Below the pieces are notes generated by a model. The model worked only from the letters and a program-made list of their open reading frames with translations, did not search any database and was not told where the DNA came from. This document shows, in pieces, positions 41,626 through 55,143 of a stretch of DNA of 64,000 nt. Each line of letters starts with the position of its first letter. Positions within the stretch are counted from its first letter, which is position 1. Made by a program: the position numbers and the translations under genes. The stretch comes from a phage: NCBI GenBank assembly GCA_020241865.1, contig GCA_020241865.1_4709.1, one strand, 5' to 3'.

Positions 41626-41646
41626 AACAAAATAGCATGAGCATAA

Positions 41647-41678
41647 CCCTCCTCCAACCCGTCAGGGAAGGAGGAGGG
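41647..41678. terminator. GC-rich stem-loop CCCTCCTCC-AA-CCC-GTCA-GGG-AA-GGAGGAGGG between convergent genes
   Basis: Perfect inverted repeat between stop 41625 (plus) and stop 41688 (minus). Confidence 0.65.
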
Positions 41679-41687
41679 AATATGCTG

Positions 41688-44600
41688 TTATCTTACGTTA
41701 TTGCTGTTCTGCTGTTCGCTGAACCAACCATACACCTTGAGATCGGTACCGTATTTCAACGCGATATACGCATTCAGCGCAGCACAGAACAAAGACGCGA
41801 ATGCCCATATCAGCGAAGGATCAACATCTTCCGTTACCATTGGGAGAGTATTATCCGGTTCCCATGATGGAGAACTGTCCATGAACGTTGCGTACCATCC
41901 CCGCCGTTGTTCTTCGGTGGTAAAGTCGCTATGGGGTTCCAATGCTTCTTTTGCCAGACGTCGATATTCGAACATATGCGTTGCTAAAGCCGATGAGTTA
42001 CCAGATTCGCCTTCATAGTTCGGATCCACCGCATAACAGAGTTCTGTGGAATCTAACAAAGCAACCGCCTGTGTGATGTTGTCGGCAGTGCCTGCACCAT
42101 AGAGCTCGATAGACCGCGAAAGCTTTTCACAGAACGCATTTAACGCGGAAGGATTGGACACCTGAAGGTCAAGGCCTAATGTCCACGGATAGTTACTGAA
42201 TACGCCCGTAAACCGCGGCATAACACCCAACAGATGTTGTCCGATTACAGCACGGTTATAAACAGCCCGGTTATAGACTTGAAACGCAGCCTCCAAAGCT
42301 TGGTTATAATGACGACGAAGTTCGTCACGCGAGTTGCGGAATCTGTTTGCCGCAAGACTTGTGGCTGCGACGCTACAAACATCGTAATTGGTGGACGAGA
42401 GCACAGTTTCGTTAAGATCGAACGATTCCTGTTTCAACGATCCGCTAACCGCTGCTGCTTCGCTGTTTGCTTTATCGACAACAGTACTCAAAGCGTTGAT
42501 GTAACGTTTAGCTCGGACTTCCAGCCATTGTGCGATACCGAGAATATCCACCGCGGCTTTAGCAAGATCGCGTGCATTCACGATTTCGTTCTTCAACGCC
42601 CCTAAACCTTTATTTTCAGGCGTTGAGGCTTGTTGACGAATCATACTGTTCAACATGGTAAGCAGATTATCCAACTCATGTCCGCTGACCTTGTTGCGCG
42701 CATCGGTAATCGGCCCTTGCAGGAATTTACGACAACCGTCATTATACCGAATCAGTTTATCCACGTCGATGGATTCGTTCGTGGTTTCCTTGAACTGATT
42801 CTTTAATTCTTCACGGTAGTCGTGTATCTCGCTTGTAAGATTATCAACGGTGATACCATTGTGACCAAGAAGAACTTTACTGAAGTTGCCCTTCTCGAAC
42901 GCCAGTGCGATGTCTTCACGAATCTTAGCCAGTTTATCCTGATCTAATTCACGACCGTTTGACAGTTCTTTCACTTCAGCACTGATTATTGCTGCAACCG
43001 TTCCAAGGTTATCGGTAACCCCTTTGAACGTGCTTGACCAAACACTTCCCGCTTCAGCGTATTTTGCGATGGTCTGGATACCGACGCTATGTAACGACGC
43101 TAAACGTTTCTTCGTACCTTCGGTAAGCAATGCATCTTTAGCTCGCGTAAGTTGACTGTTATTGGCTTCCGCTTGCTGGATGGCCGCTTTCGCATTCCCG
43201 TTACGCCAGCTCTTAACCAACCAATCGACCAAACGTTTCAGGATGTTGATGGTATATTCCATCGTACGTCGTAACGTTTCCCATGCGCTTTCAGCGGTAT
43301 AGATCCCACCAACAGTGTACCCTTCCATCTTCAGCGCTTTGGTATCGGTTTGACGTGCCAACCATTCTACCGTCGCAGAACAAACGTTTACGAACGCCTC
43401 CAGGTAGTTGTAATAGGCCTCTGTTGCGGAGGTTTCGTTGAGCTTCGAATGCAGATAAAACTGTTCGTATAGCTCGTCGTCATCACCGAAGGCGTCGTAG
43501 TTCCACAGTTCGGTATCGCAGCCGGTACCACAGAAGACATCCGCCGTTGTAAACTCCTTAAGTGCTTTCGTTGCGTCGTTGGTCAGGAATTTACCTGTCT
43601 CAAGTACGTCGTCAACATTAAGTCTCGGGAGTTCGTCAGTAATTGGGTTTTCCAGCATCAACGTATTGAAGAACACGCTGTACTTGTATCCAAGCCATTT
43701 TGGATAACTGTTTTCAGATATCGTAGACGCCGGTTTGATTTTCTTGGCTTCAGCCAACGTGTCTTCTGCAACCTGATATTGGTTTTCCCCAGCTTTGATA
43801 CGTCGTAATGCTTTTTCTTCCAACTGTTTGAGTTTGGTGTGCCGTGCTTGAGCTGGAGCCTCAACCAGTTTTTGTACCGACCGCATGGCGGAAATCGCTT
43901 CTTTCAATGTGGTGATCGGCATACGAACTTTACCGTCATCGAAACTCAGCGCGCGAGCAATACGTCGACTTACAACAGGTTCGGTATGGATGTTTCTTTC
44001 TACCCACGATTTGTTTGCGTAGGTTTGCGTGATTTGCTGCTGGATCTTTTCAAGATAGCCCCAGCTTTTGGATGCTTTGCCGTCCAAAAGCGGATTAGGT
44101 CCTTTCTTATCAAAAAGCTTTTTGATAGGATCAAAGAAACCTTCTTGCACGAGATCGATACGGGTGTAACCATCAGCTGCTTCGATTTCTTCTTGGGTTT
44201 TATCCCAGAAGTCGTCGCTCTTTGCAGCAACCGCTGTATCTTTAATGTCCAGGATGATCTGACCCACCGTTTGCGCAAACAGCAAGGCCGCACGTACCGA
44301 TTGTGCGAACATCCGCTGATATTTGATTCGAACGCATTGCATCTGGGTTAGCAGATTCAGTTGCGCGATCCCATCCAAGGTGCTATCTTGAGCAAGTCCT
44401 TCAGCCTTAGCGATAACCTGTTTTACACGTTCAGCGACATCAACGTATTGCTGGCATACATCCCGCAGAATACGTGCTGCGAAGACCCCGGTACCGATAT
44501 AGTTCAACAGGTCTTTTAATGACCATTCAGACGGACAATCGGCTGGTGCGGTAGGGAGTAAGCAACCATCACCGTCCATGAATCGCTCTAATGCACTAAT

Positions 44601-45281
44601 ATCCTGATTTTCTACTCTCATGGGGATATCAGCATCAGCGGCTTGCAGATCCAGCATCTGTTGTAGGATGTTGGTATCGGTTTGCACAAGCGTCGCAAGC
44701 GCTTGGCTGTGTGCGATTATTGGTAACGCTGGTGACCATACTGCAGCAAGCTTGTCGGCGTGACGTTGAATGGCATACCCCATATCCTCGATCACATCGG
44801 GATGCTCGATAACCCCCTGAAGCGTTTGATGTAGCTCACCGAGTTGCTGAGACAGATCGACCATCATGGTGTTGAAGGTTTCGCCATCCTCTTTGTGGTT
44901 GTCCAGACGCTCAAGTTCATGTTGAAGCAATGCGACGAGCTGTCCGTTGCCTTCTTGCTTCAGCTTGCTTTCCATTAACGTAACGGCTTTATCGACGATC
45001 TGGCACGCTTCACGAAAACCGGTTGTGGAAGGAAGCTCTGTCCATAACGCCAGCGGTTTACCGTCAAGGGCTTCCGGCATCGATAACGAAAGCATAGACA
45101 GTTGTTGACGTGATACTTGCTGTTCACGGTGTAATGTTTCTTTTAACGCCAAGAGATCGTCAAGAAACGCGCCGTTAAGGGTGGTCGTACGCGGTGTTGA
45201 ATTAATACCGTCAGTTAACGATTCAAGCACCAGGAGACCGTTATCAGCTGAAGAGAGTCCCGCGGCAAGATATTTGTTCAT
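41688..45281 (-). CDS. large hypothetical protein (1197 aa)
   Basis: ORF track; ATG 45281 with ACGGAG upstream. Confidence 0.85.
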   Translation of the reverse strand: MNKYLAAGLSSADNGLLVLESLTDGINSTPRTTTLNGAFLDDLLALKETLHREQQVSRQQLSMLSLSMPEALDGKPLALWTELPSTTGFREACQIVDKAVTLMESKLKQEGNGQLVALLQHELERLDNHKEDGETFNTMMVDLSQQLGELHQTLQGVIEHPDVIEDMGYAIQRHADKLAAVWSPALPIIAHSQALATLVQTDTNILQQMLDLQAADADIPMRVENQDISALERFMDGDGCLLPTAPADCPSEWSLKDLLNYIGTGVFAARILRDVCQQYVDVAERVKQVIAKAEGLAQDSTLDGIAQLNLLTQMQCVRIKYQRMFAQSVRAALLFAQTVGQIILDIKDTAVAAKSDDFWDKTQEEIEAADGYTRIDLVQEGFFDPIKKLFDKKGPNPLLDGKASKSWGYLEKIQQQITQTYANKSWVERNIHTEPVVSRRIARALSFDDGKVRMPITTLKEAISAMRSVQKLVEAPAQARHTKLKQLEEKALRRIKAGENQYQVAEDTLAEAKKIKPASTISENSYPKWLGYKYSVFFNTLMLENPITDELPRLNVDDVLETGKFLTNDATKALKEFTTADVFCGTGCDTELWNYDAFGDDDELYEQFYLHSKLNETSATEAYYNYLEAFVNVCSATVEWLARQTDTKALKMEGYTVGGIYTAESAWETLRRTMEYTINILKRLVDWLVKSWRNGNAKAAIQQAEANNSQLTRAKDALLTEGTKKRLASLHSVGIQTIAKYAEAGSVWSSTFKGVTDNLGTVAAIISAEVKELSNGRELDQDKLAKIREDIALAFEKGNFSKVLLGHNGITVDNLTSEIHDYREELKNQFKETTNESIDVDKLIRYNDGCRKFLQGPITDARNKVSGHELDNLLTMLNSMIRQQASTPENKGLGALKNEIVNARDLAKAAVDILGIAQWLEVRAKRYINALSTVVDKANSEAAAVSGSLKQESFDLNETVLSSTNYDVCSVAATSLAANRFRNSRDELRRHYNQALEAAFQVYNRAVYNRAVIGQHLLGVMPRFTGVFSNYPWTLGLDLQVSNPSALNAFCEKLSRSIELYGAGTADNITQAVALLDSTELCYAVDPNYEGESGNSSALATHMFEYRRLAKEALEPHSDFTTEEQRRGWYATFMDSSPSWEPDNTLPMVTEDVDPSLIWAFASLFCAALNAYIALKYGTDLKVYGWFSEQQNSNNVR

Positions 45282-45296
45282 AAAACACTCCGTTGG

Positions 45297-45327
45297 CCTA
45301 GGGGAAGGTTTTCAGCCTTCCCCTAGG
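45297..45327 (-). terminator. stem-loop CCTAGGGGAAGG-TTTTCAG-CCTTCCCCTAGG
   Basis: Perfect 12-bp inverted repeat between stop 45341 and start 45281. Confidence 0.6.
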
Positions 45328-45340
45328 GTTATAAACACAA

Positions 45341-48136
45341 TTAAGCTAATTTACCGAAACCGGCTTTTTGCAGTTTCTCGTTGATGATTTTCGCTTCAGC
45401 GAAGACGTAATCGCGGTAGGCGGTCACTAACGCATCCACACGTGAACGCAAGGCTTCTTCGAAGCTATACCACGCTGCGATTTCACGAATCTGTGCGTTG
45501 ATATAATCAACGGTTGAGCGAAGCTCGGTTGCGTTTTCTTGCGGAACGGCTTTCACCTGGCGAGCAACGTCATTTAAACGGCGGAACTGTGTTTCGATTT
45601 CTTTAAACTTACTGTCGGCAAGTTTGCTGAATTCGTCACCAGAACGGGTAAATAACAGATAGCTGTTGCCGTCAAGTGCGGTCGCTAACTGCTGAAGTAC
45701 GTTGGTGTCCGGATACACAGGAGTACCGCTTTGCAGTACTTTCTCACCGAATTCCGCGAAGTCCTTCGGTGGTAAGTGTGCAGACGTTGTCAATTCGTTG
45801 AAACGGAAAGTCAGCGAATTATCATACAGCATCCGGTACGCTTCCATACCCTGTTTCATGGTACCGGCCAGGTTAGCCAGACGCGGAGCAATCTCGCCTT
45901 CTTTAGCGCGTTTCTGGTCTTCTAACGCCCCTTCGAGTTCTTTACACTGGTCGTTCAGATACACGATACGATCAGGACGTAGACGACGCATCTCACGAAG
46001 AATAGTATCCAGCTTACCTTCCTGGAAATAACCCAACGTTAAAGACGTACACGCTTGCTGAAGACGATCGAACACCGGTAAGGTTACCATCTCCTTACGG
46101 ATACCATCAACAATCGCAGAAACAGCCGAAAGTTTCTGTTCTGTAGTCAATGGAACATCAGAGGCCGACTTGCTGGGTGCACCAACAACGTTACGCATTG
46201 CGTCGGTATCCTCGGTTTTATCAACCTCTTTACGAACATGCTCATCAGGAACATAAACGTTCGCGTTACGTTTCGCCTGCTTGATGGCGTCGTTGGCCGC
46301 TTTTTCGGTGGCCGCTACGCTATCGGCACGTTTCTTCAAGAGTTCAATAATCCAGAGCAACAGACGACGAATCGCAGTGTAGGCTGTCGTGATGATGACA
46401 CCGATAACAGCCATCTTCATGATACCGAACGATTCCATGGTCGGCTCTAACGCTTGGTCTGGCATATACCGTTCACGCAGCTCCAGATAGATCTGCTCAT
46501 CTGGTTTGCTGACCTCACCACGATGCGAAGTCCGATAAATGGCTTCGTCAATCTCAACAAGATCTTTGCGTGCCTGACGGTCAGATTCTGTTAGGTAAGC
46601 ACAACCGGATACGTCGTCTTCGAAGCTTAAGAATTTGAAAAAGTCACTGACGTCGATCTTGATCTTCTTCGCTTCATTATCGACATCGATAACATCTTTT
46701 TTCTGTGCCTGATATTCCGCTTTGATGTCGTTCACCGGCTTCAACGCACGTTCTTTTAATACCTGCACGATCTGTTTCCAGTCGGCGTCACGCTCAAGAA
46801 CAAGGAAGTAATTCTTGAGTTCAAAAGCACGGTAACGCGCAACGAGTTGTTCTACCTGAATATGAGCGAGTTGCACATCCATCAGCCAACGCGACATTGC
46901 TGAGATCAAACGGCTATAAGCAAGCAATGTCTGATATGTTAGCTTCATGTGCTTTTCGTACAGCTCAATATCGCCGTCTTGAATATCAGCCGTTGGGTTC
47001 ATTTCCTTCGTTGCTTTGAAGATCTGTTCGGCCTCATTTAACGTTTGTTCGAATTTGACTTCATTAAACGTGTCAAACGGTTCAGCCAACTCCATCATTC
47101 GATCGTGAAGCTCACGAACCCAGGCTTCCTTATTGTTGCGAATAGCTGCGTCATCGTGAAGTTCAGTTTGATGTTTCTGTACCCATTCTTCGACGATATC
47201 AGCGGCGGCAACAATTCCTGTACCATCGGAAACTAACGGAACAACTCCAGCAAGTACGCCTACACACGCCGGGGTTTTCCAATAATCGTTCAAAGCGTTT
47301 CTGAATTCAACGATGGATTGTACGTTTGGTACCGTATCCAAAAACGTACTGCCGTTACGGCTCATTGTCGTTACGATATCAGCGAATTCCTTCTGCTTAG
47401 CGGTAACAAAAGGAACCAGGACCATAAGCCATTCAGCAACCGACTTCGCTTTCTCTTTCAGATTTTTGTCAGCGATTTCCTTAAGGTTTATCGCACCACC
47501 GTAACCTGCAAGCTCTTTATATACGTCGCTAAGGGTCATCTGTTTATCCAACATTTCTTTGAAACGTGGGTAATCAGCACCTAACGCATCGACAATATCG
47601 TTGATTACGTCATCAGTTGTTGCGATAAACTTCTTCGTATCAACGTTTGAATATTTCCAGACGTATCGTACTGCTTTCTTGATTCCTGCAAAGATAAACG
47701 CCCAGATACGCTTGATGAGTTCCCAGACTTTCTTCGCGCCATCGACAAACAGTTTAGAGACCTTGGCAACGAATCCTTCCTGCACCAATTCAACGCCGTT
47801 ACGTGATGGGATTTCCGTGAAGAAAGCATCCGGCAGTTGTTTCGGGAATGCGTCACCAAGACGCATACGCAGTTCCGGTACATCAGCACGAGAAATACCG
47901 CGTGTTACTAATTGTTCGTGAAGACGAACGTTTTCTTCACCAGAGGTCACGAATTCGTCAACATCGAAGGAGACCATTGTTTCCTGATCTTCGGTGGTAA
48001 CGACGCTTGAACCATCACTGGTTTGGATGTCTTCGTCAGGGAATGCCATGAGCATACCGTGACGCATTTCAACCACCCCGTAATCGGTTGCTAAACCGAA
48101 TTCGTTGTGGTCTGGGGTAATAACTGGGATACTCAT
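45341..48136 (-). CDS. large hypothetical protein (931 aa) with hydrophobic segments
   Basis: ORF track; ATG 48136 with AGGAG upstream; ATGA overlap with upstream stop. Confidence 0.85.
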   Translation of the reverse strand: MSIPVITPDHNEFGLATDYGVVEMRHGMLMAFPDEDIQTSDGSSVVTTEDQETMVSFDVDEFVTSGEENVRLHEQLVTRGISRADVPELRMRLGDAFPKQLPDAFFTEIPSRNGVELVQEGFVAKVSKLFVDGAKKVWELIKRIWAFIFAGIKKAVRYVWKYSNVDTKKFIATTDDVINDIVDALGADYPRFKEMLDKQMTLSDVYKELAGYGGAINLKEIADKNLKEKAKSVAEWLMVLVPFVTAKQKEFADIVTTMSRNGSTFLDTVPNVQSIVEFRNALNDYWKTPACVGVLAGVVPLVSDGTGIVAAADIVEEWVQKHQTELHDDAAIRNNKEAWVRELHDRMMELAEPFDTFNEVKFEQTLNEAEQIFKATKEMNPTADIQDGDIELYEKHMKLTYQTLLAYSRLISAMSRWLMDVQLAHIQVEQLVARYRAFELKNYFLVLERDADWKQIVQVLKERALKPVNDIKAEYQAQKKDVIDVDNEAKKIKIDVSDFFKFLSFEDDVSGCAYLTESDRQARKDLVEIDEAIYRTSHRGEVSKPDEQIYLELRERYMPDQALEPTMESFGIMKMAVIGVIITTAYTAIRRLLLWIIELLKKRADSVAATEKAANDAIKQAKRNANVYVPDEHVRKEVDKTEDTDAMRNVVGAPSKSASDVPLTTEQKLSAVSAIVDGIRKEMVTLPVFDRLQQACTSLTLGYFQEGKLDTILREMRRLRPDRIVYLNDQCKELEGALEDQKRAKEGEIAPRLANLAGTMKQGMEAYRMLYDNSLTFRFNELTTSAHLPPKDFAEFGEKVLQSGTPVYPDTNVLQQLATALDGNSYLLFTRSGDEFSKLADSKFKEIETQFRRLNDVARQVKAVPQENATELRSTVDYINAQIREIAAWYSFEEALRSRVDALVTAYRDYVFAEAKIINEKLQKAGFGKLA

Positions 48137-48573
48137 GCATTCTCTCCTTGCAGTGCGTTAGCGAAAGCCGTTGCGAGTTGCGCAACCAGCTTAGGATCAA
48201 CACCTTCGATAACGTCGGGCAGCCCTGCGGTTTCTTGGTCACGAACGGCGGAGGCTAATAACAGCATGGTTTCAGGTGCGGTCGGCTCATGCACCATGCG
48301 GTAACGCAGGCACCAGAAGTAGCGGGCAACGTCTAACGCATCGGCCAGCCCAATAACCAGTACCTTGTTCAGCTTATCCAGCCCTTCACGGATTTTAGGG
48401 AGATGTTCGCGAACGAAAATGCTATCTGCGGTCAGATCTTCTTTTTCAGCGAATACGGGCATGCTGTAACCAGCGATATAACCTGCGGCAATACTTAGCG
48501 CACGGGTCTGTTGTTCGGCTGGGAAATCACGTACCAGGTCTTTCAGCTGAACGGCGAAATCAGAAATATTCAT
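48133..48573 (-). CDS. hypothetical protein (146 aa)
   Basis: ORF track; ATG 48573 with AAAGGA upstream. Confidence 0.75.
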   Translation of the reverse strand: MNISDFAVQLKDLVRDFPAEQQTRALSIAAGYIAGYSMPVFAEKEDLTADSIFVREHLPKIREGLDKLNKVLVIGLADALDVARYFWCLRYRMVHEPTAPETMLLLASAVRDQETAGLPDVIEGVDPKLVAQLATAFANALQGENA

Positions 48574-48605
48574 GTTAAATTCCTTTATAGTAAAAATAGA
48601 AGAGA

Positions 48606-49916
48606 TTAGGCGATAATGGAGTCAAGAGTCGCTGCGGTTTTGAACAGATCGCTGTTCATTGTAGAAGAAAGGACTTGCTGAATTTCTTCCTGTTTAACCG
48701 CTTTACGAACCCCAGGACGAAGGATAAGCGTAACCATCTGTGAAAAGGTACGATTATTGTTCATCGCACTCAGCGTTTCATCGATTGTTTTGATGGCATC
48801 CAGCGTCATGGAACGAACATCGCTTGGGATATCACGATCTTTCAAGCGTATAATTAAATCTTGTTTGATTTTACGGAATCGTTCCATGTCGTTATCGTAA
48901 ATGCTGTATGTCGGATCTAACCAAACAGAAAGCGCGGTTACAGCGACAACAACCAACACGCCGATAGCACCAACAGAAGCTAAACCTATCGCCATCATAG
49001 AAGCTATAGTAGCATCCATGATGAAGGAGAGCCAGAACATCGTTTTGGACTTCACGGAGTCTTTGCTATAAAGCCGATACATTTTAGCAAGCCCGCTAAC
49101 GAGATACTCCCCACCGCCATGACGCGTAGCGAACTGATCAGCCATGAATTCGGAAGCAACGTCGGTATATCGTCCAGCGTTGTTTACGTTTCTTAACTGC
49201 ATCGCTCTGTTAGACACGTAAACCGTGTACCAGACACTACCGTCGTCTGAATCACTGATTTTGTCTACGTCGACGTTGGTATCCAACGTTTTGTTTAACG
49301 CTTTCGCCAGTTCGATACGTTTTACCTTATCGGTTGTCCCCAACAGTTCACGCTGTACGGTCATGATTGAGGCTTCGACACGAACCGTTTCCGACAATGT
49401 TTCAAGGAAGGTAAATGCGTGCCCGATTTCATGCAGCATTATGGCTGCTTTTTCTTCCGGAAGAAAGGGTTCTGTCGCCGTTAGCAGTTCATACGTGATG
49501 GCAGAACGAATCTTCAATTCTTCAAAAATACCGTAAACACGACCTTTTTCTAAATCGACGTAACCGACAGGTGTATCTTTAATCTTCTTAAGGAGCGTAA
49601 CACCATCAGCACCGCGCATCCATAACCGATGATAGTCTGCCAGGATTGTGTTGTTTGTCGAAATATCCGGCGGGTACACGTAGGCATTCATCCGGCCCAT
49701 TTTCACGTCGACCGAGAATTCGATGTTCAACCCCGTATAGCGTTTAACCATCTCGGTTAAACGACCGTCCTTGAAAACGTTTAAAACCTCTTTTTTATCC
49801 AGTCCCTGTTTGCTTCTGAAGAACTCGGTCATTTCCTTGAACAAGGAACCATCTTGAAACTTGATGGCCTCCATCGTTAATTCGTCATGACCATACACGC
49901 GTTGTAGTAATGACAT
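48606..49916 (-). CDS. membrane-associated zinc metallopeptidase candidate (HEXXH motif, 436 aa)
   Basis: ORF track; motif AIMLHEIGHAF at residues about 159-168 (about 49419-49433); about 40-residue hydrophobic stretch FWLSFIMDATIASMMAIGLASVGAIGVLVVVAVTALSVWL at residues about 293-332. Confidence 0.8.
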   Translation of the reverse strand: MSLLQRVYGHDELTMEAIKFQDGSLFKEMTEFFRSKQGLDKKEVLNVFKDGRLTEMVKRYTGLNIEFSVDVKMGRMNAYVYPPDISTNNTILADYHRLWMRGADGVTLLKKIKDTPVGYVDLEKGRVYGIFEELKIRSAITYELLTATEPFLPEEKAAIMLHEIGHAFTFLETLSETVRVEASIMTVQRELLGTTDKVKRIELAKALNKTLDTNVDVDKISDSDDGSVWYTVYVSNRAMQLRNVNNAGRYTDVASEFMADQFATRHGGGEYLVSGLAKMYRLYSKDSVKSKTMFWLSFIMDATIASMMAIGLASVGAIGVLVVVAVTALSVWLDPTYSIYDNDMERFRKIKQDLIIRLKDRDIPSDVRSMTLDAIKTIDETLSAMNNNRTFSQMVTLILRPGVRKAVKQEEIQQVLSSTMNSDLFKTAATLDSIIA

Positions 49917-49927
49917 TGTACACTCTC

Positions 49928-49945
49928 TAAATTTACGTAAATTTA
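49928..49945. promoter_or_regulatory. 18-bp perfect palindrome TAAATTTACGTAAATTTA in divergent intergenic region
   Basis: Read from sequence; 12 nt upstream of minus gene start 49916, in the 221-bp spacer before plus gene start 50138. Confidence 0.5.
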
Positions 49946-50137
49946 AGGGTTCATGGATCGGCTGGCCGCACCAATCACAATGTGTCCGCTGCTATGCAAC
50001 GGCATTCATAGAAATACCTTTTGACGGTAACATCACCGTTCATACCCCAAGCAATAAGAGTGGTCGGTTAAAAACAACAGAACGTGAGGATGATATAGAA
50101 AATCACCTTTTAACACTTATTACGAGTTTATCAAGCC

Positions 50138-51889
50138 ATGAGCGAACAAGAACGAAAACCTAAGAAGAAACTGCTCGGTATTCAATGTCGACACATCAGC
50201 TATAACGAAGCGAACGATGGCAGCAAGAACGACCTCATGATCGCAAAAGAGATCATGTTCTTCGATGATAATACGCAAGCGACGAACCTTCGCTTCTTCG
50301 AGAATTACAAACGTCCGTTTTGGGTGACGGTAGAGAGTAAACGTAAGAACAAATATAAAAAGGAAAGCGAGAAGCTCTCGCATGTGCGTCGCTACGATGT
50401 CCGCCAAAGCGAACTGGTTGAAAAGATCAGCTCGGTACTTTATAAAAGACGTGCTGACGATAACACCCGTTTACAGCAGCTTGCACGGAGTCCATACCTC
50501 TATGGAACGGACGTTAGCGCCAGCTGTTATTTAAAAACCCAGTACAACACAAAATGGCCGGAATACGTCGATAAATTACCCGCTTCCATTGCCTGTTTCG
50601 ATATCGAAACCGACGTTGTCCACGGACACGGTAAGATCGTTTGTATGTCTATTACAATGGGATACAATGCGATACTTTGCTATACCAAGGACTTCGTTGG
50701 TCATATTCCGAATGCCATTGAGAAAACCCATGAGAAGATTCGATATTACCTGGCCGAACGTCTGAATACCAAAGAAGATCCCCACGCATTCGAAAAATAT
50801 CAGTACGATGTTCGAATCGTAGAAAGCCCGGCACAAGCGGTCATCCAATGCATGCAGAAGGTTCACGAATGGCAGCCGGATTATCTCCTTGGCTGGAATA
50901 TCGCGTTCGATATTCCGCGCATGCTCCAGGCACTGAACGAGGAAGGGTATCGTCCCGAGGATGTTTTCTCCGATCCCCGTATACCACCTAAATATCGTAT
51001 TGCTCGCTGGGTACCACCGAAGACCGACAAGGTATCTGCTTCAGGTCGTAAAACCAACCTTACCCTTGAGCAAACCTGGCCGATGTTTTATACGATGGCT
51101 ACGTATCAGGTTATGGATGCGATGTGTGGCTATAAGTTCGTTCGTTTAGGAAGACCGGATGAAGGACGCTATTCACTCGATGCGGTGTTAGAGCGAAATA
51201 AATGCCATACGAAATTAAAAGCTATTCCTGGTACAGAGGGGTTCACGGAGCTTGCCTGGCACGAAGAGATGCAAACGAACCATCAAATCGACTACGGCGT
51301 ATATAACCTTTGGGATAACCAGGGTATTGAGGCGTTGGACCAGAAAACAAAAGACTATTCGATGACCATCCCTATCCGTTTAGCGGCGTCGGATTTGAAA
51401 GATTTCAGTTCTAACCCTAAACGTATCTGCGATAAACTTTTCTTCGTTTATCTTAACCGTGGGGAAGTCATGGGATGTACCGCTGACGACATGACCCAGG
51501 AAGAAGATAAGTGGGTTATCTCACGAGCTGGACATATCGTCACATTACCATGCGATCTCATGGCTGACAACGGCATTCATCTCTTCTGGGATATGCCGAA
51601 CCTGAGAAGTTATATCCGTCTATTCGTTGCAGACCTTGACATTAGCAGTTCATACCCGAATGGGCAGATCCTGTTGAATCTATCCAGAGCGTGTGTTTTT
51701 CGCGAGCTCTCACGCATTGAGGGCGTCTCTGACTATCAATTCAGGAAGTTAGGTATCAACTTTATTACCGGAGGTAAAACGAACGCTGTAGACTTCTGTA
51801 GAATCGTTTATAAAGCACCATCGATGTTTGAACTTTTAGAACATTTCGATGCAACGCGTCCAAAAGAGGAAGCGCGGACCATCGAATGA
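50138..51889 (+). CDS. family-B DNA polymerase N-terminal fragment (3'-5' exonuclease domain plus motif A), 583 aa
   Basis: Motifs by eye in canonical order: Exo I CFDIETD (about residue 155), Exo II WNIAFDIP (about 258), Exo III Y-x3-D (YQVMD about 323 or YSLDAV about 345), motif-A-like DLDISSSYPNG (about 499); no motif B (K-x3-NS-x-YG) or motif C (YGDTDS) before stop. Confidence 0.8.
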   Translation: MSEQERKPKKKLLGIQCRHISYNEANDGSKNDLMIAKEIMFFDDNTQATNLRFFENYKRPFWVTVESKRKNKYKKESEKLSHVRRYDVRQSELVEKISSVLYKRRADDNTRLQQLARSPYLYGTDVSASCYLKTQYNTKWPEYVDKLPASIACFDIETDVVHGHGKIVCMSITMGYNAILCYTKDFVGHIPNAIEKTHEKIRYYLAERLNTKEDPHAFEKYQYDVRIVESPAQAVIQCMQKVHEWQPDYLLGWNIAFDIPRMLQALNEEGYRPEDVFSDPRIPPKYRIARWVPPKTDKVSASGRKTNLTLEQTWPMFYTMATYQVMDAMCGYKFVRLGRPDEGRYSLDAVLERNKCHTKLKAIPGTEGFTELAWHEEMQTNHQIDYGVYNLWDNQGIEALDQKTKDYSMTIPIRLAASDLKDFSSNPKRICDKLFFVYLNRGEVMGCTADDMTQEEDKWVISRAGHIVTLPCDLMADNGIHLFWDMPNLRSYIRLFVADLDISSSYPNGQILLNLSRACVFRELSRIEGVSDYQFRKLGINFITGGKTNAVDFCRIVYKAPSMFELLEHFDATRPKEEARTIE

Positions 51890-53044: not shown

Positions 53045-53443
53045 TTATGCTTCGCAATCAGCTGAAGGCGTCGCGCCTTTCTTACCAGCGATACGCCAAA
53101 TCCGACACGCTGGGTAATGGTTAACCTCTAGAGAGCAAGGAATGTTATATTTCTCTTCCAGCGCATAAAGACATTTCGTTAGCTGCTCCAGCGCGTTCTC
53201 GTCGTGTCGTAACGCGTGGTGGCCTAATCGATGTTGGTCGTTCTTTATATACGCCTCGAAGAGAACATGTTGGCGATGTACGCTGACGTTTACAGCCTCG
53301 AGTATAGCTTGGTCGAGCATACGACTAAAGCACATCAACGAGTCAGATACGTTTTCTCGCTTAACCAGATCGATCATGGCGGGAATATACGAATGGTCGA
53401 TGTTATCGATGACCGCTTTAGCGACGGAATCAGCAACGTTCAT
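53045..53443 (-). CDS. small hypothetical protein (132 aa), tandem paralog of 53481-53876
   Basis: ORF track; shared motifs KAVxDNIDH, MIDxxK, EEKYNIP-SLEVN. Confidence 0.8.
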   Translation of the reverse strand: MNVADSVAKAVIDNIDHSYIPAMIDLVKRENVSDSLMCFSRMLDQAILEAVNVSVHRQHVLFEAYIKNDQHRLGHHALRHDENALEQLTKCLYALEEKYNIPCSLEVNHYPACRIWRIAGKKGATPSADCEA

Positions 53444-53480
53444 CTTTTTTAATCCCTAGTTTGTTATTGATCACGTATAT

Positions 53481-53876
53481 TTACTCTTTGACGTCAGTTG
53501 TCGTTTCGACATGCTTCTCACTACTGACGTACCAGAGCAGGTACGCTGGGAAAAGATTGACCTCTAAGCTAAATGGGATATTGTATTTCTCTTCCATTTT
53601 ACAGAGATGTTCTTTAAGTAAATTTCTCGCGTCTCTGTCACCACGAACAGAGTGCCAGTCTAGTTCTTTGTTCTCCTTTACCAGGACCTCTACGATGATA
53701 CGTTGCTCGTGAACCTCGGTTTTCACAGTGAAAAGTAAATCGCTGCTATCCAAACGGGTAAAACGAATGTATGAACCAGGTGTTTTTTCTTGTTTAATAA
53801 TATCGATCATGGTAGAAATGCGCGGATGATCGATGTTGTCGTTAACAGCTTTAACGATGGATTCTACAATGCTCAT
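53481..53876 (-). CDS. small hypothetical protein (131 aa), tandem paralog of 53045-53443
   Basis: ORF track; ATG 53876 with AAGGA upstream. Confidence 0.8.
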   Translation of the reverse strand: MSIVESIVKAVNDNIDHPRISTMIDIIKQEKTPGSYIRFTRLDSSDLLFTVKTEVHEQRIIVEVLVKENKELDWHSVRGDRDARNLLKEHLCKMEEKYNIPFSLEVNLFPAYLLWYVSSEKHVETTTDVKE

Positions 53877-53908
53877 TTTTTATCCTTAATGTTATCGATT
53901 TGGAAATA

Positions 53909-54676
53909 TTACTTATTTTTGCTTTCTTTATAGACAGTTGTTACCCACGATGGGAAAGCCGGATGGAAACAGAGCGTGAACGTAACTGTCGTATCGTATT
54001 TAAACGCACAGTTCACTAACCGGGTATCTAACGTTTTCCTTAATCCGTCATCATCGTTATCGATGATGGTCATATCTCTTAATATCCCAAGCACGTTAAC
54101 GCCATCGGGTGTCTGGGTTACGACAAGTCGTCGTAATGGCCCGCATGTATAGTCACGTACAAATCCTTTCTTCGGGTCCGATACCCTGTTTAACGCATCG
54201 TGATTTTTGATGAATTCATCGGCGATACAATAGGTTTGCTCCCTTGCTTTATCGGGATCGTATTCTGCTAATAGTTCCTTCGTGTCGAATGTTATCGCGT
54301 TATTAGCATTCGATTCAGAAGGGAAACATAAAACTAAACGAACAGGGTATTCATATTGATCTGTTCTCGTTTCGAAAGCATTAGCTAAACACGGCTTGTA
54401 TGCCTTTGCGTCGACATTGTCCAAACACGGATGCAATAATGCGTGAATAACGGCACCATCGTCAGTTAAACCGAATTCCAGAAATTGTGTTTCATCGACA
54501 TCCGTGACGGTTTTCTGAAGATACGCTTTACCGTTAACGATATCGGTATCCCACATATCGTCGTTTAACGATTCTTCAAACTTATCGAATATATGGTTTA
54601 CGAAATTGATGAGTTCATCAATACGACACTGTTGGTTGAATTCGATTAATCGTTGAACTTTATCTCTGATAGACAT
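53909..54676 (-). CDS. hypothetical protein (255 aa), small-gene island
   Basis: ORF track; ATG 54676 with AAGGAG upstream. Confidence 0.8.
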   Translation of the reverse strand: MSIRDKVQRLIEFNQQCRIDELINFVNHIFDKFEESLNDDMWDTDIVNGKAYLQKTVTDVDETQFLEFGLTDDGAVIHALLHPCLDNVDAKAYKPCLANAFETRTDQYEYPVRLVLCFPSESNANNAITFDTKELLAEYDPDKAREQTYCIADEFIKNHDALNRVSDPKKGFVRDYTCGPLRRLVVTQTPDGVNVLGILRDMTIIDNDDDGLRKTLDTRLVNCAFKYDTTVTFTLCFHPAFPSWVTTVYKESKNK

Positions 54677-54678
54677 GA

Positions 54679-55143
54679 TTACTCCTTAGTTCCTTCTTCG
54701 TTGGACGTATATTCCACATAGTGGAATTCACGGCCGTCGATAAACTTGAGTGCTACTGTAATAGGGAAATCACACGGCATAGCGGATTTCGTAAATGCGT
54801 TATCAGCAACATCAGATAACCGACGTATGGTATTCTCCCCTTTTGCTATGAATGGGAATTTAATGTTAATAAGGATACGGTGTTTGTAAATAGTAAAGAC
54901 GACAGTGCTGTCGAAATGTACCCCAGTTAAAGTCATTGTTGGGATACGTTTTACAACGGAGAAATGTGTCCCGTCAATATCGCTACTTCCCACTGACCAT
55001 TCATCGGAATTGCGTAGACTTTTCTTGAGGATATCAACGCTTTGCGTGACCACCTCAGCAACTTGTACGACGTACGTGTCTTTATGCATGTCGAAAAGTT
55101 CGTTGACGTTAGATTTGAATGAATAAACCGTTGCCATTATCAT
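54679..55143 (-). CDS. small hypothetical protein (154 aa), small-gene island
   Basis: ORF track; ATG 55143 overlaps upstream stop (ATGA); alternative ATG 55137 has better SD spacing. Confidence 0.75.
   Translation of the reverse strand: MIMATVYSFKSNVNELFDMHKDTYVVQVAEVVTQSVDILKKSLRNSDEWSVGSSDIDGTHFSVVKRIPTMTLTGVHFDSTVVFTIYKHRILINIKFPFIAKGENTIRRLSDVADNAFTKSAMPCDFPITVALKFIDGREFHYVEYTSNEEGTKE

What the first reader, a model, noticed from the sequence alone, without database searches (positions are those of the whole stretch)
48606..49916. Membrane HEXXH metallopeptidase-like protein in a phage structural region
The 436-aa protein contains LHEIGHAF (HEXXH zinc-binding signature) around residue 162, followed about 130 residues later by an about 40-residue hydrophobic stretch long enough for two transmembrane helices. 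This architecture resembles M48/M56-type membrane metallopeptidases or ImmA/IrrE-like HEXXH proteins. In a phage it could process virion or host envelope proteins, act in lysis regulation or superinfection exclusion, or cleave a host defence component.
Basis: partly seen in the sequence, partly recalled or inferred. Interest (0 to 1): 0.55.

Follow-up and report, generated by a model that had tools for sequence, protein, structure and literature searches.

The report
Capsid-packaged M48-like zinc protease, jumbo phage

Summary
A 436-aa ORF on the minus strand (48606-49916) carries HEIGH at residues 162-166 and a charge-free hydrophobic hairpin at about 291-336.

The M48 reading is supported.
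- H162, E163, H166, E256 and D260 are present in 150/150 diverse relatives.
- A family profile aligns E256 with the third zinc ligand of ZMPSTE24 (E415).
- hhalign against E. coli M48s gives 84-92% probability.
- 50 of 109 relatives touch Pfam Peptidase_M48. The window protein itself has no Pfam hit.
- M56 and M78/ImmA are not supported.

The protein is the ortholog of Goslar gp67, phiKZ gp84 and SPN3US gp45, which is core gene cg22 of the Chimalliviridae. Published proteomics puts it in the head at about 48 copies per Goslar virion. A short N-terminal propeptide is removed by the prohead protease. The predicted cut here is TME16|A17, and a Goslar semi-tryptic peptide starts at A17. Neither Goslar nor phiKZ cryo-EM maps resolve it.

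What the enzyme cleaves is unknown. Whether the hairpin enters a membrane after ejection, for example the early-infection vesicle, or is buried at the capsid vertex complex encoded next door is also unknown. I favour ejection, with modest confidence.

The parts
48606..49916 (-). CDS of the M48-like head protein: 436 aa, 49.3 kDa, predicted mature form 47.4 kDa. Ortholog of Goslar gp067, phiKZ gp84, SPN3US gp45 and RAY gp286, which is Chimalliviridae core gene cg22.
   Evidence: ORF and translation. 91% identical to Goslar gp067. BLASTP to SPN3US gp45 E=3e-25 and to phiKZ gp84 E=7e-25. PHROG 2767 over the full length, E=6e-82. Core-genome table.
49869..49916 (-). Predicted N-terminal propeptide, residues 1-16 (MSLLQRVYGHDELTME), removed by the prohead protease after Glu16. 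It is a short capsid-targeting-like peptide.
   Evidence: Glu16 is 99% conserved in 148 representatives. It aligns with SPN3US gp45 Glu20, the published cleavage site ASE-20. The Goslar virion peptide AIKFQDGSLFKEMTEFFR starts at Ala17, after a Glu, and no peptide from residues 1-16 was found. Residues 1-14 have pLDDT <50.
49461..49868 (-). N-terminal alpha/beta subdomain (residues 17-152), with a five-stranded sheet (64-70, 78-81, 119-121, 126-128, 135-141) that precedes the active-site helix, as in zincin proteases.
   Evidence: AF2 model, pLDDT mostly 80-98. hhalign aligns the last strand plus the HExxH segment to E. coli M48 proteases. G129 is invariant.
49341..49460 (-). Active-site helix, residues 153-192.
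   Evidence: Helix 153-192 in the AF2 model. This region and the E256 helix are the best-conserved parts of the protein.
49419..49433 (-). HEIGH, residues 162-166. H162 and H166 are the predicted zinc ligands and E163 the catalytic base.
   Evidence: Invariant in 25/25, 109/109 and 150/150 relatives. Aligned to ZMPSTE24 H335-E336-x-x-H339 and to HtpX H139-E140-x-x-H143.
49179..49340 (-). Variable helical insert, residues 193-246, between the two ligand-bearing helices.
   Evidence: Low conservation, majority fraction 0.34. Helices 197-211, 217-220 and 226-241. It makes the H-to-E spacing about 95 residues, against about 62-83 in the E. coli M48 enzymes and ZMPSTE24.
49116..49151 (-). Third-ligand motif E256-F-M-A-D260-Q-F-A-T-R265-H-G267, on helix 254-282.
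   Evidence: E256 and D260 are invariant in 150/150. The family profile aligns 'sEflADqFAtRhGaGrdLvtaLdKL' to ZMPSTE24 '[27 protein letters not shown]', which puts E256 on E415. The same E-x-x-A-D motif is invariant in E. coli HtpX, BepA, LoiP and YcaL.
48909..49046 (-). Hydrophobic helical hairpin, residues 291-336 (helices 291-314 and 317-332), a candidate membrane-insertion element.
   Evidence: KD(19) maximum 2.57 and a 32-residue charge-free run. A segment with KD(19)>=1.6 is present at the same place in 24/25 and 148/150 relatives. It is the least sequence-conserved region (0.27) and its length varies. pLDDT 86-93.
48879..48899 (-). Y340-D341-x4-R346 motif immediately after the hairpin. 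It may be the counterpart of the M48 'H-P-x4-R' motif.
   Evidence: R346 is invariant; Y340 and D341 are about 95% conserved. E. coli M48s have an invariant H-P-x4-R with identical spacing. The best local hhalign alignments pair R346 with HtpX R282, but they are not significant (E 0.2-0.3).
48609..48899 (-). C-terminal helical domain, residues 340-436, specific to the phage family.
   Evidence: Helices 343-358, 365-383, 391-399, 401-420 and 423-435, pLDDT about 88-98. K359, Q413 and N422 are conserved. No Pfam match.
48133..48573 (-). Downstream neighbour, 146 aa. It corresponds to Goslar gp066 and phiKZ gp85, a component of the capsid vertex-binding complex.
   Evidence: Synteny with Goslar. 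Goslar cryo-EM and MS assign it to the vertex-binding complex at 110 copies. The same gene order holds in phiKZ, SPN3US and distant metagenomic relatives, where the neighbour hits PF25615 PhiKZ_gp85.
45341..48136 (-). Second downstream neighbour, 931 aa. It corresponds to Goslar gp065 and phiKZ gp86 (SPN3US gp47 position), a vertex-binding complex component, and has a TM-like segment at residues 571-594.
   Evidence: SPN3US gp47 data.

Best explanation
The gene encodes a zinc metalloprotease of the M48 lineage (Ste24/HtpX/BepA type) that is built into the phage head.

Shown here or in published data on orthologs:
(1) The active-site residues H162, E163, H166, E256 and D260 are invariant across thousands of divergent relatives, and the catalytic core has the M48 fold.
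(2) The protein is in purified virions at roughly 50 copies. It lies in the head, and icosahedral or vertex cryo-EM maps do not resolve it.
(3) Its first ~16 residues are a propeptide cut off after a conserved Glu by the prohead protease, so it enters the prohead before maturation.
(4) It is a core gene of nucleus-forming phages, always followed by the genes for two capsid vertex-complex proteins.

Inferred:
(5) The enzyme is active, not a relic.
(6) The 40-residue charge-free hairpin, inserted between the third-ligand helix and the following conserved helix, is a membrane-insertion element. It is shielded inside the lipid-free capsid and deployed when head contents are ejected.
(7) After ejection the protein sits in the inner membrane or the membrane of the early-phage-infection (EPI) vesicle. 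There it cleaves a membrane-proximal substrate, either a host envelope protein or a co-ejected phage protein. Both soluble domains lie on the same side of the membrane, because the anchor is a hairpin.

My confidence in steps 1-4 is about 0.9, in step 5 about 0.75, and in steps 6-7 about 0.35-0.4.
For: Motifs: HExxH and E-x3-D are present in 150/150 representatives that are <50% identical to each other, and the hairpin in 148/150. The invariant columns are the same in alignments of 25 and 109 sequences.

Profiles:
- The family HMM hits ZMPSTE24 at E=0.0014, with both motifs aligned.
- hhalign against E. coli HtpX/BepA/LoiP/YcaL gives 84-92% probability, E about 1e-6 to 7e-6.
- Peptidase_M48 is the top Pfam family for 15/25 and 50/109 members, best E=1.6e-5. 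One member scores 19.0 bits against a 20.3-bit cut-off, over profile positions 37-164 of 186.
- BFVD full-length structural matches include 'Zincin protease' of Bacillus phage AR9 and 'Peptidase M48 domain-containing protein'.

Virion location:
- Goslar gp067 gave 19 peptides and 47% coverage, about 48 (32-76) copies per virion, including the peptide spanning HEIGH.
- phiKZ gp84 is annotated 'structural head protein'.
- SPN3US gp45 is listed as 'Head, unknown function'.

Propeptide: the SPN3US site ASE-20 aligns with the 99%-conserved Glu16 here. The Goslar semi-tryptic peptide starts at Ala17.

Core gene cg22. Synteny with the gp85 and gp86 homologs holds down to 23-28% identity.

Hairpin properties typical of lipid-embedded segments: it is the longest charge-free run in 24/25 homologs, the least conserved in sequence, and variable in length.

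Context: chimalliviruses inject many head proteins, and their DNA first lies in a membrane vesicle whose membrane proteins and channels are unidentified. phiKZ orf84 shows 0 transposon insertions in 1242 bp in one of the two TnSeq insertion tables, which I take to be the selected library.
Against: No experiment shows that gp84/gp67/gp45 is ejected, binds membrane, binds zinc or cleaves anything. The injection assays published so far tested other proteins.

The window protein itself has no Pfam, NCBIfam or PDB-sequence hit, and global Foldseek against the PDB finds nothing significant. The M48 assignment therefore rests on remote-homology methods.

A mature capsid has no lipid, so roughly 50 hydrophobic hairpins must be shielded somehow. 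The neighbouring genes encode capsid-resident vertex-complex proteins, which favours the rival in which the protein stays in the head.

The TnSeq zero-insertion result may be a polar effect: orf85-86 also have none, yet can be deleted.

The Goslar group departs from the family at three near-invariant positions (N181E, D251T, E417S). The significance of this is unknown.
Confidence: 0.55

Rival explanations
1. A capsid-resident enzyme. The protein stays in the head as a flexible or sub-stoichiometric partner of the inner vertex-binding complex (VBC). The hydrophobic hairpin is buried in protein-protein contacts rather than lipid. The protease works inside the (pro)head, for example trimming or clearing propeptides and inner-body proteins, or releasing head contents at ejection.
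For: The gene is always immediately upstream of the genes for the VBC proteins gp85 and gp86. The estimated ~48 copies is close to the 55 VBC units per capsid. The Goslar map has unassigned alpha-helical density packed next to gp65. The VBC neighbour gp65 also has a TM-like segment yet is capsid-bound. [quoted passage not shown]
Against: The protein is not modelled in either the Goslar or the phiKZ structures, and it is not among the VBC components (7 proteins in phiKZ, 5 in Goslar). A specific protein interface should be sequence-conserved, but the hairpin is the least conserved and most length-variable region. All known head-protein cleavages in these phages are attributed to the serine prohead protease and follow its after-Glu motif. 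The label-free MS (LFQ) copy numbers are rough: gp066 is modelled at 110 copies but estimated at about 1000.
Confidence: 0.27
2. A membrane anchor for head assembly. The hairpin tethers the nascent prohead core or initiation complex to the host inner membrane, where chimallivirus procapsids are reported to assemble. The protease domain then helps release or mature the particle.
For: The hairpin has lipid-type properties. The protein enters the prohead before maturation, because it is a prohead-protease substrate. That procapsids of these phages assemble at the membrane, and that T4 proheads start on the membrane, is my own knowledge; I did not check it here.
Against: A protein that ends up enclosed in a sealed shell at about 50 copies is topologically hard to keep in the bilayer. 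Only 16 N-terminal residues are removed, so the hairpin remains in the mature virion protein. No data tie gp84 to assembly initiation. Portal-less empty Goslar capsids still form.
Confidence: 0.1
3. A structural protein with a fossil active site: a pseudo-protease that keeps the M48 scaffold but no longer has catalytic activity.
For: Databases annotate it only as a structural or virion protein. There is no activity data. The window protein falls below every curated peptidase threshold.
Against: H162, E163, H166, E256 and D260 are present in 150/150 representatives at <50% mutual identity, in a family of more than 3800 clusters. Pseudo-enzymes normally lose such residues.
Confidence: 0.05
4. 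One reading: an ImmA/IrrE (M78) or BlaR1-type (M56) regulator protease, acting in lysis control, superinfection exclusion or repressor cleavage.
For: An HEXXH motif combined with hydrophobic helices is shared superficially with these families.
Against: Neither PF06114 (M78) nor PF05569 (M56) appears among the listed (top-25) Pfam families for either member set (25 and 109 members) or among the fold hits. The protein is packaged in heads and cut by the prohead protease. These lytic jumbo phages have no adjacent repressor or HTH partner.
Confidence: 0.02

Closest known systems
ZMPSTE24 / Ste24p (MEROPS M48A, CAAX prenyl protease)
Bacterial M48 proteases HtpX, BepA, LoiP and YcaL
   Different: It has no signal peptide or lipobox, no TPR domain (BepA) and no N-terminal TM pair (HtpX). 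The hairpin lies in a different place. The His of the H-P motif, reported as an autoinhibitory plug in BepA (abstract seen), is a Tyr here. The window protein scores below Pfam's gathering threshold. It is packaged in a virus particle.
phiKZ gp84 / SPN3US gp45 / Goslar gp67 / RAY gp286 (Chimalliviridae core gene cg22; PHROG 2767)
   Same: True orthologs: full-length alignment, the same motifs, the same gene neighbourhood, head location and a short propeptide.
   Different: None in kind; this is a 91%-identical copy of Goslar gp67. In the papers read or searched here the family is listed only as 'virion/head protein, unknown function'. The protease reading appears only in scattered database labels.
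Phage head-internal and ejection proteins with targeting propeptides or TM segments (T4 internal proteins with a CTS; SPN3US gp47; T7 gp14-16 type; the last is from my own knowledge)
   Same: It has a short N-terminal propeptide removed by the prohead protease, comparable in length to the T4 CTS as noted for gp45. It carries a hydrophobic segment in a lipid-free capsid, like the proposed ejection protein gp47.
   Different: None of those proteins is known as a metalloprotease. Ejection of this protein has not been tested. SPN3US gp47's positional equivalents (phiKZ gp86, Goslar gp65) have since been found fixed at the capsid vertices, so a TM-like segment alone does not prove ejection.
'Zincin protease' proteins of Bacillus phage AR9 and 'Peptidase M48 domain' proteins of uncultured Myoviridae (BFVD)
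   Same: Full-length structural matches (Foldseek E 1e-6 to 4e-4, probability 1.0). This suggests the module predates the Chimalliviridae and is shared with other jumbo phages that have multisubunit RNA polymerases.
   Different: Identity is only 9-16% and TM-scores are 0.28-0.45. Virion location and presence of the hairpin were not checked here.

Membership tests
MEROPS M48 / Pfam PF01435 Peptidase_M48 | An HExxH motif on a helix: two His zinc ligands and the catalytic Glu. | tested here: met
   HEIGH at 162-166, on helix 153-192. Present in 150/150 representatives. Aligned to ZMPSTE24 H335/E336/H339 and HtpX H139/E140/H143.
MEROPS M48 / Pfam PF01435 Peptidase_M48 | A third zinc ligand Glu in an E-x-x-A-D motif on a downstream helix. 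| tested here: met
   E256-F-M-A-D260. E and D are present in 150/150. The family profile puts E256 on ZMPSTE24 E415. The same motif is invariant in four E. coli M48s.
MEROPS M48 / Pfam PF01435 Peptidase_M48 | A score above Pfam's curated gathering threshold (20.3 bits). | tested here: not met
   The window protein has no PF01435 hit even at E<=10. Among relatives, 15/25 and 50/109 hit it at E<=1, best E=1.6e-5 (bit score not shown). One member scores 19.0 bits. By Pfam's criterion the window protein is not a member; it is a remote relative.
MEROPS M48 / Pfam PF01435 Peptidase_M48 | The M48 catalytic-domain fold. | tested here: met
MEROPS M48 / Pfam PF01435 Peptidase_M48 | The C-terminal H-P-x4-R motif, invariant in E. 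coli HtpX, BepA, LoiP and YcaL. | tested here: inconclusive
   The phage family has Y340-D341-x4-R346 with identical spacing. The best local hhalign alignments pair R346 with HtpX R282, but at E=0.2-0.3.
MEROPS M48 / Pfam PF01435 Peptidase_M48 | Zinc-dependent endopeptidase activity. | not testable with these tools
   No biochemical data were found for any ortholog. No paper in the library combines 'Chimalliviridae' with 'metallopeptidase', and the 15 listed hits of the jumbo phage/M48/metalloprotease search concern no chimallivirus ortholog.
MEROPS M56 (BlaR1/MecR1) | An N-terminal multi-TM protease domain matching PF05569, usually with a sensor domain. | tested here: not met
MEROPS M78 (ImmA/IrrE) | A PF06114 match and a partner HTH repressor. 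| tested here: not met
   No PF06114 hit. No HTH gene is adjacent.
Chimalliviridae core gene cg22 (phiKZ gp84 family, PHROG 2767) | Full-length homology and conserved position between the DNA polymerase gene and the gp85/gp86 homologs. | tested here: met
Head proteins processed by the chimallivirus prohead protease (S80) | Cleavage C-terminal to Glu in an S/A/G-x-E type motif, giving a mature N-terminus seen by MS. | tested here: met
   Glu16 is 99% conserved and aligns with the SPN3US gp45 ASE-20 site. The Goslar semi-tryptic peptide starts at Ala17. P3 is Thr here (T-M-E) rather than S/A/G, and the support is a single peptide in a truncated supplementary file.
Ejected (injected) virion proteins | Transfer from the virion into the host cell on infection. 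| not testable with these tools
   The published injection assays covered other proteins (Goslar gp58, gp60, gp61; phiKZ gp90-97, 153, 163, 174, 177, 184 and vRNAP), not this one.
Integral or monotopic membrane proteins | A hydrophobic segment long enough to span or dip into a bilayer, and experimental membrane association. | tested here: inconclusive
   The sequence criteria are met: KD 2.57, a 32-residue charge-free run, two helices of 24 and 16 residues, conserved in 148/150. Membrane association is untested. The second helix is short for a full span, so a re-entrant hairpin is possible.

The most novel reading that the evidence does not exclude
The head-packaged M48-like protease is one of the missing phage-encoded membrane components of the early-phage-infection (EPI) vesicle. 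On this reading it is ejected with the DNA and its hairpin inserts into the inner-membrane-derived bilayer. Its proteolytic activity then remodels host or co-ejected proteins to form, seal, gate or later open the vesicle. That would make it the first enzyme tied to biogenesis of a membrane organelle made by a bacteriophage.
Probability: 0.15. Interest if true: 0.85.

Novelty: new variant of a known kind. Interest (0 to 1): 0.55.

Why it matters
Nucleus-forming jumbo phages first place their genome in a membrane vesicle. How that vesicle forms, and which proteins sit in its membrane, is an open question; a recent review says its channels are 'as-yet-unidentified'.

This work shows that a universally conserved head protein carried at about 50 copies per virion is, by sequence and fold, an intact zinc protease with a lipid-type hairpin. 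That turns an 'unknown virion protein' into a concrete hypothesis that can be tested with tools already used in the field: tagged-virion injection assays, Cas13a-selected mutants, knock-downs and cryo-EM density fitting.

It also adds a second, mechanistically different protease to the head of these phages, besides the serine prohead protease. The phage version is an M48 enzyme in which a hydrophobic hairpin is inserted into an otherwise soluble catalytic domain and which is delivered by a virus particle.

If the protein proves to be capsid-resident, it could instead account for unassigned density at the capsid vertices.

Tried and rejected
1. Direct scans of the window protein against Pfam, NCBIfam and PDB sequences found no peptidase hit. 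The only matches were weak ones to membrane-protein families over the hairpin (SCAMP, CASP).
2. Foldseek of the whole model against the PDB found nothing below E=0.18. The top hits were helical repeats, plus noise-level matches to alpha-pore-forming toxins (MakB, AhlB, SmhB; E 1-4, probability <=0.11). These are conceptually tempting for a shielded hydrophobic hairpin, but they are not evidence.
3. The afdb50 library was unavailable.
4. hhalign of the C-terminal half alone, with or without the hairpin removed, against E. coli M48s was not significant (E 0.2-0.3). The Y-D-x4-R = H-P-x4-R equivalence therefore stays a suggestion.
5. The planned column-shuffled control for the hhalign tests was coded but never run, so those tests have no shuffled control.
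6. In two fusion proteins (P0158, 1237 aa; P0182, 839 aa) the N-terminal extensions have no Pfam domain and only E>0.04 similarity to the window's large head proteins. They were uninformative.
7. The sigma-70 promoter and terminator scan of 41000-50400 found fewer promoter-like sites than the shuffles and no minus-strand terminator within the four-gene block. This is uninformative, because these phages use their own RNA polymerases.
8. Literature:
- Three 'gp84' full-text hits opened concerned other phages.
- The phiKZ interactome supplement lists PHIKZ084 only as detected.
- The ASO knock-down paper does not mention the gene, and the CRISPRi-ART paper does not mention its Goslar ortholog gp67.
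- Thomas et al. 2012 (phiKZ head proteolysis) is not held, so the phiKZ gp84 cleavage site and copy number were not checked.
9. The phiKZ TnSeq zero-insertion result for orf84 is not used as proof of essentiality, because of the authors' polar-effect caveat for orf85-86. Which supplementary table is the selected library is also my inference.
Full report
OBSERVATION. The ORF is real but lies on the minus strand: 49916 down to 48606, ATG start, 436 codons plus stop. HEIGH occupies residues 162-166 (window 49419-49433). A hydrophobic block follows about 130 residues later. Its Kyte-Doolittle 19-residue maximum is 2.57. Residues 302-333 form a 32-residue stretch without any charged residue, against 11 for the next-longest such run in the protein. 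The protein has only five histidines, so the chance expectation of an HExxH in a protein of this size and composition is about 0.003. One bookkeeping point: my first alignments (A1, A2) and first model were made from a reference that dropped Met1. Residue numbers printed are therefore one lower than the true numbering used here. The later alignments (A4, A5) and the second model use full-length numbering.

WHERE THE WINDOW COMES FROM. The region is about 92% identical in nucleotides to Escherichia phage vB_EcoM_Goslar, a nucleus-forming jumbo phage of the Chimalliviridae. The protein is 91% identical to Goslar gp067. tblastn finds it in 218 phage records, all phiKZ-like jumbo phages among those listed, and most of them annotate it 'virion structural protein' or 'hypothetical'. 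It matches PHROG 2767 (unknown function) end to end, E=6e-82. BLASTP confirms full-length orthology to phiKZ gp84 (E=7e-25) and SPN3US gp45 (E=3e-25). Prichard et al. list Goslar gp067 = phiKZ gp084 = RAY gp286 as core gene cg22, 'putative virion structural protein'. An exhaustive profile search of 1.84 billion cluster representatives finds 3,816 clusters at E<=1e-3 and 1,752 at E<=1e-30. Nearly all of the best 150 are 411-457 aa long and match over their full length.

IS IT A METALLOPEPTIDASE, AND OF WHICH FAMILY? The window protein alone gives no peptidase hit in Pfam, NCBIfam or PDB sequences. Several independent lines of remote-homology evidence nevertheless agree.
- Conservation. In 25, 109 and 150 divergent relatives the invariant positions are G129, H162, E163, G165, H166, E256, D260 and R346, with R265 close to invariant. 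HExxH and a downstream E-x3-D-x-[aromatic/aliphatic] motif occur in 150/150 representatives that are <50% identical to one another, with a median spacing of 95 residues.
- Family profile against PDB sequences. The profile finds human ZMPSTE24 at E=0.0014. It aligns 'EEiaAilLHEiGH' to 'EEVLAVLGHELGH' (H335, E336, H339). It also aligns 'sEflADqFAtRhGaGrdLvtaLdKL' to '[27 protein letters not shown]', which places E256 on E415. That E415 is the third zinc ligand of ZMPSTE24 is my own knowledge.
- Profile-profile comparison. I extracted HtpX, BepA, LoiP and YcaL from E. coli K-12. hhalign gives 84% probability (E=7e-6) with the 25-sequence profile and 90-92% (E about 1e-6) with a 148-sequence profile. 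The match covers the last beta-strand plus the HExxH helix.
- Pfam per member. Scanned one by one, 15/25 and 50/109 family members hit Peptidase_M48 at E<=1 (best E=1.6e-5). One member reaches 19.0 bits against the 20.3-bit cut-off, in a single alignment spanning profile positions 37-164 of 186. The next families are other zincins (SprT-like 16, Zincin_1 6), and neither M56 nor M78/ImmA is among the families listed.
- Viral structure library. BFVD returns full-length matches labelled 'Zincin protease' (Bacillus phage AR9, two proteins) and 'Peptidase M48 domain-containing protein / Beta-barrel assembly-enhancing protease' (uncultured Myoviridae).
The counter-evidence is that global Foldseek against the PDB found nothing significant, and the window protein fails Pfam's own threshold. 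I therefore call it an M48-like remote relative rather than a Pfam-defined member.

ANATOMY (second model; conservation).
- Residues 1-14 are disordered.
- Residues 17-152 form an alpha/beta subdomain with five strands.
- Helix 153-192 carries HEIGH.
- Residues 193-246 are a poorly conserved helical insert.
- Helix 254-282 carries E256-F-M-A-D260.
- Residues 291-314 and 317-332 are the two helices of the hydrophobic hairpin.
- Immediately after it lies an invariant Y340-D341-x4-R346 motif.
- Residues 343-435 form a family-specific helical domain.
The E. coli M48 enzymes share an invariant H-P-x4-R motif downstream of E-x-x-A-D. The phage Y-D-x4-R has the same spacing. The best, though non-significant (E 0.2-0.3), hhalign alignments of the C-terminal half pair R346 with HtpX R282 and E256 with HtpX E222. 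If that equivalence holds, the hairpin is an insertion inside the M48 catalytic domain. This remains a suggestion.

THE HAIRPIN. A segment with KD(19)>=1.6 sits at the same position in 24/25 and 148/150 relatives. In 24/25 it is the longest charge-free run of the whole protein (16-50 residues). It is also the least sequence-conserved region (majority fraction 0.27, against 0.57-0.60 for the two catalytic helices), and it varies in length. Conserved chemistry with free sequence and length is the usual signature of lipid-facing segments rather than of a specific protein interface. That is an inference, not a demonstration. The second helix (16 residues) is short for a full span, so a re-entrant hairpin is possible. 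In either case both soluble domains would lie on the same side of the membrane.

VIRION LOCATION AND PROCESSING (published data on orthologs).
- In the 2026 Goslar virion preprint (10.64898/2026.04.21.720040), Table S4 lists gp067 with 19 peptides and 46.8% coverage. The estimate is about 48 copies per virion (range 32-76). The peptides include AAIMLHEIGHAFTFLETLSETVR.
- The protein is not part of the 28-protein atomic model, and the main text never mentions it.
- phiKZ gp84 is annotated 'structural head protein'. It is absent from both phiKZ structural papers.
- SPN3US gp45 is a head protein of 'unknown function' whose 20-residue propeptide is removed by the prohead protease at ASE-20. It is the only SPN3US head protein whose propeptide length was likened to the T4 capsid-targeting sequence.
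- In my alignments that Glu is Glu16 here, 99% conserved.
- The Goslar peptide list contains the semi-tryptic peptide AIKFQDGSLFKEMTEFFR, which starts at Ala17 directly after Glu16. No peptide from residues 1-16 was found.
The protein therefore enters the prohead before maturation and is trimmed at TME16|A17, which leaves a 47.4-kDa mature form. Caveats: this rests on a single peptide in a truncated supplementary file, and P3 is Thr rather than S/A/G.

GENE NEIGHBOURHOOD. Four co-directional genes follow one another with no minus-strand terminator-like site between them: the M48-like gene, a 146-aa gene (48133-48573), a 931-aa gene (45341-48136) and a 1197-aa gene (41688-45281). In Goslar the 146-aa and 931-aa orthologs (gp66, gp65) are homologs of phiKZ gp85 and gp86. 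They form the inner-capsid 'vertex binding complex', modelled at 110 and 55 copies. The order 'DNA polymerase (divergent) | M48-like > gp85-like > gp86-like | gp87-like' holds in phiKZ, SPN3US and metagenomic relatives of only 23-28% identity. The Goslar map also shows unassigned alpha-helical density beside gp65. The 931-aa and 1197-aa proteins have hydrophobic TM-like segments too.

FUNCTIONAL DATA. None is direct.
- In a phiKZ TnSeq supplement, orf84 has 0 insertions over 1242 bp in one table and 9 unique insertions in the other. I take the first to be the selected library.
- orf85, 86 and 87 also have none there, and the authors show that orf85-86 can be deleted. They attribute such gaps to polar effects. 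Essentiality of orf84 is therefore suggested but not established.
- Injection assays published for Goslar and phiKZ did not include this protein.
- No paper in the searchable library combines 'Chimalliviridae' with 'metallopeptidase', and none of the listed hits of a jumbo phage/M48/metalloprotease search concerns this protein.

HOW IT MOST LIKELY WORKS. I commit to the following.
- The protein is an active M48-type zinc protease. This is inferred from complete conservation of the catalytic residues across thousands of clusters; confidence is about 0.75.
- It is loaded into the prohead and trimmed by the prohead protease. This is shown for orthologs.
- It is carried at roughly 50 copies in a position that is not icosahedrally ordered. 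This is also shown for orthologs.
- The hairpin is most simply explained as a membrane-insertion device that is shielded in the capsid. It would be used once the head contents are ejected into the periplasm or inner membrane, where these phages build the EPI vesicle. The enzyme would then cut a membrane-proximal host or co-ejected protein. This step is inferred; confidence is about 0.35-0.4.

RIVALS.
- Main rival (about 0.27): the protein stays in the head as a loosely ordered partner of the vertex complex encoded next door, the hairpin is buried in protein, and the protease acts inside the head.
- Weaker rival (about 0.1): the hairpin anchors head assembly at the inner membrane.
- A dead-enzyme scaffold (about 0.05) is contradicted by the invariant active site.

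COMPARISON AND NOVELTY. The gene is a near-identical copy of a known core virion gene, so its existence is not new. Some database entries already carry protease labels for relatives: 'beta-barrel assembly-enhancing protease' in two SPN3US-type records, and the 'Zincin protease'/'Peptidase M48' labels on more distant BFVD matches (AR9, uncultured Myoviridae). The papers I could read or search treat it as a head protein of unknown function, and recent structural atlases leave it unplaced. Relative to characterised M48 enzymes it differs in four ways. It has a soluble catalytic core with a hydrophobic hairpin placed after the third ligand. It has a phage-specific C-terminal helical domain. It has Y-D in place of H-P in the downstream motif. 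And it has a prohead-protease-cleaved propeptide and is packaged in a virus particle. I rate it a new variant of a known kind, of moderate interest (0.55). The interest lies mainly in giving the EPI-vesicle and ejection field a specific candidate that is easy to test.

Noticed in passing
window 51633-51653 (junction); DNA polymerase ORF 50138-51889 (+): Goslar carries about 1.78 kb here, including the NUMOD1/HNH homing-endonuclease gene gp069, that is absent from this window. The family-B-like DNA polymerase ORF is uninterrupted in the window (583 aa, against 499 aa annotated for Goslar gp068). Goslar's polymerase gene therefore looks interrupted by a homing-endonuclease insertion or intron, and this phage is the 'empty' allele.
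   Followed up: partly
window 43333-44127, inside ORF 41688-45281 (-): A ~795-bp in-frame segment with no counterpart in Goslar makes this virion protein 1197 aa instead of the 930 aa of Goslar gp064. Goslar gp064 is an unmodelled virion protein estimated at about 110 copies.
   Followed up: partly
window 46355-46426 (931-aa ORF, residues 571-594) and 41757-41816 (1197-aa ORF, residues 1156-1175): Both large proteins downstream of the M48-like gene carry a TM-like hydrophobic segment, so three of the four co-directional genes do. The 931-aa protein's Goslar ortholog is nevertheless fixed at the capsid vertices. This is a caution against reading hydrophobic segments in head proteins as proof of membrane insertion.
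   Followed up: partly
window 53045-53443 and 53481-53876 (both -); region 53054-54688: Two adjacent small ORFs (132 and 131 aa) are paralogs (38% identity, E=6e-33). The ~1.6-kb stretch from 53054 to 54688 has no nucleotide match in the Goslar region compared. It lies in a cluster of small minus-strand ORFs that looks locally replaced or diverged.
   Followed up: partly
window 49374-49376 (E181), 49164-49166 (T251), 48666-48668 (S417): The Goslar-group protein differs from the family at three positions that are >=90% conserved elsewhere: N181->E, D251->T and E417->S. The catalytic residues are all retained.
   Followed up: no
window 45303-45321 (-), between the 931-aa and 1197-aa ORFs: There is a perfect 6-bp stem-loop, GGAAGG-CTGAAAA-CCTTCC, in the 59-nt intergenic gap, without a T-run. 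It could be an RNA processing or attenuation element. It was not examined further.
   Followed up: no
proteins P0158 (1237 aa) and P0182 (839 aa) from the representative search: Two metagenomic relatives carry the whole M48-like module at the C-terminus of a much longer protein. The N-terminal extensions have no Pfam domain; one starts with a TM-like helix. It is unclear whether these are real fusions or gene-calling artefacts.
   Followed up: partly
Goslar preprint Table S4 (orthologs of window 48133-48573 and 45341-48136): Label-free MS (LFQ) copy estimates deviate strongly from modelled copy numbers for some vertex-complex proteins: gp066 is modelled at 110 and estimated at about 1000, and gp059 is modelled at 55 and estimated at about 190. 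The ~48-copy figure for gp067 is therefore only an order of magnitude.
   Followed up: no
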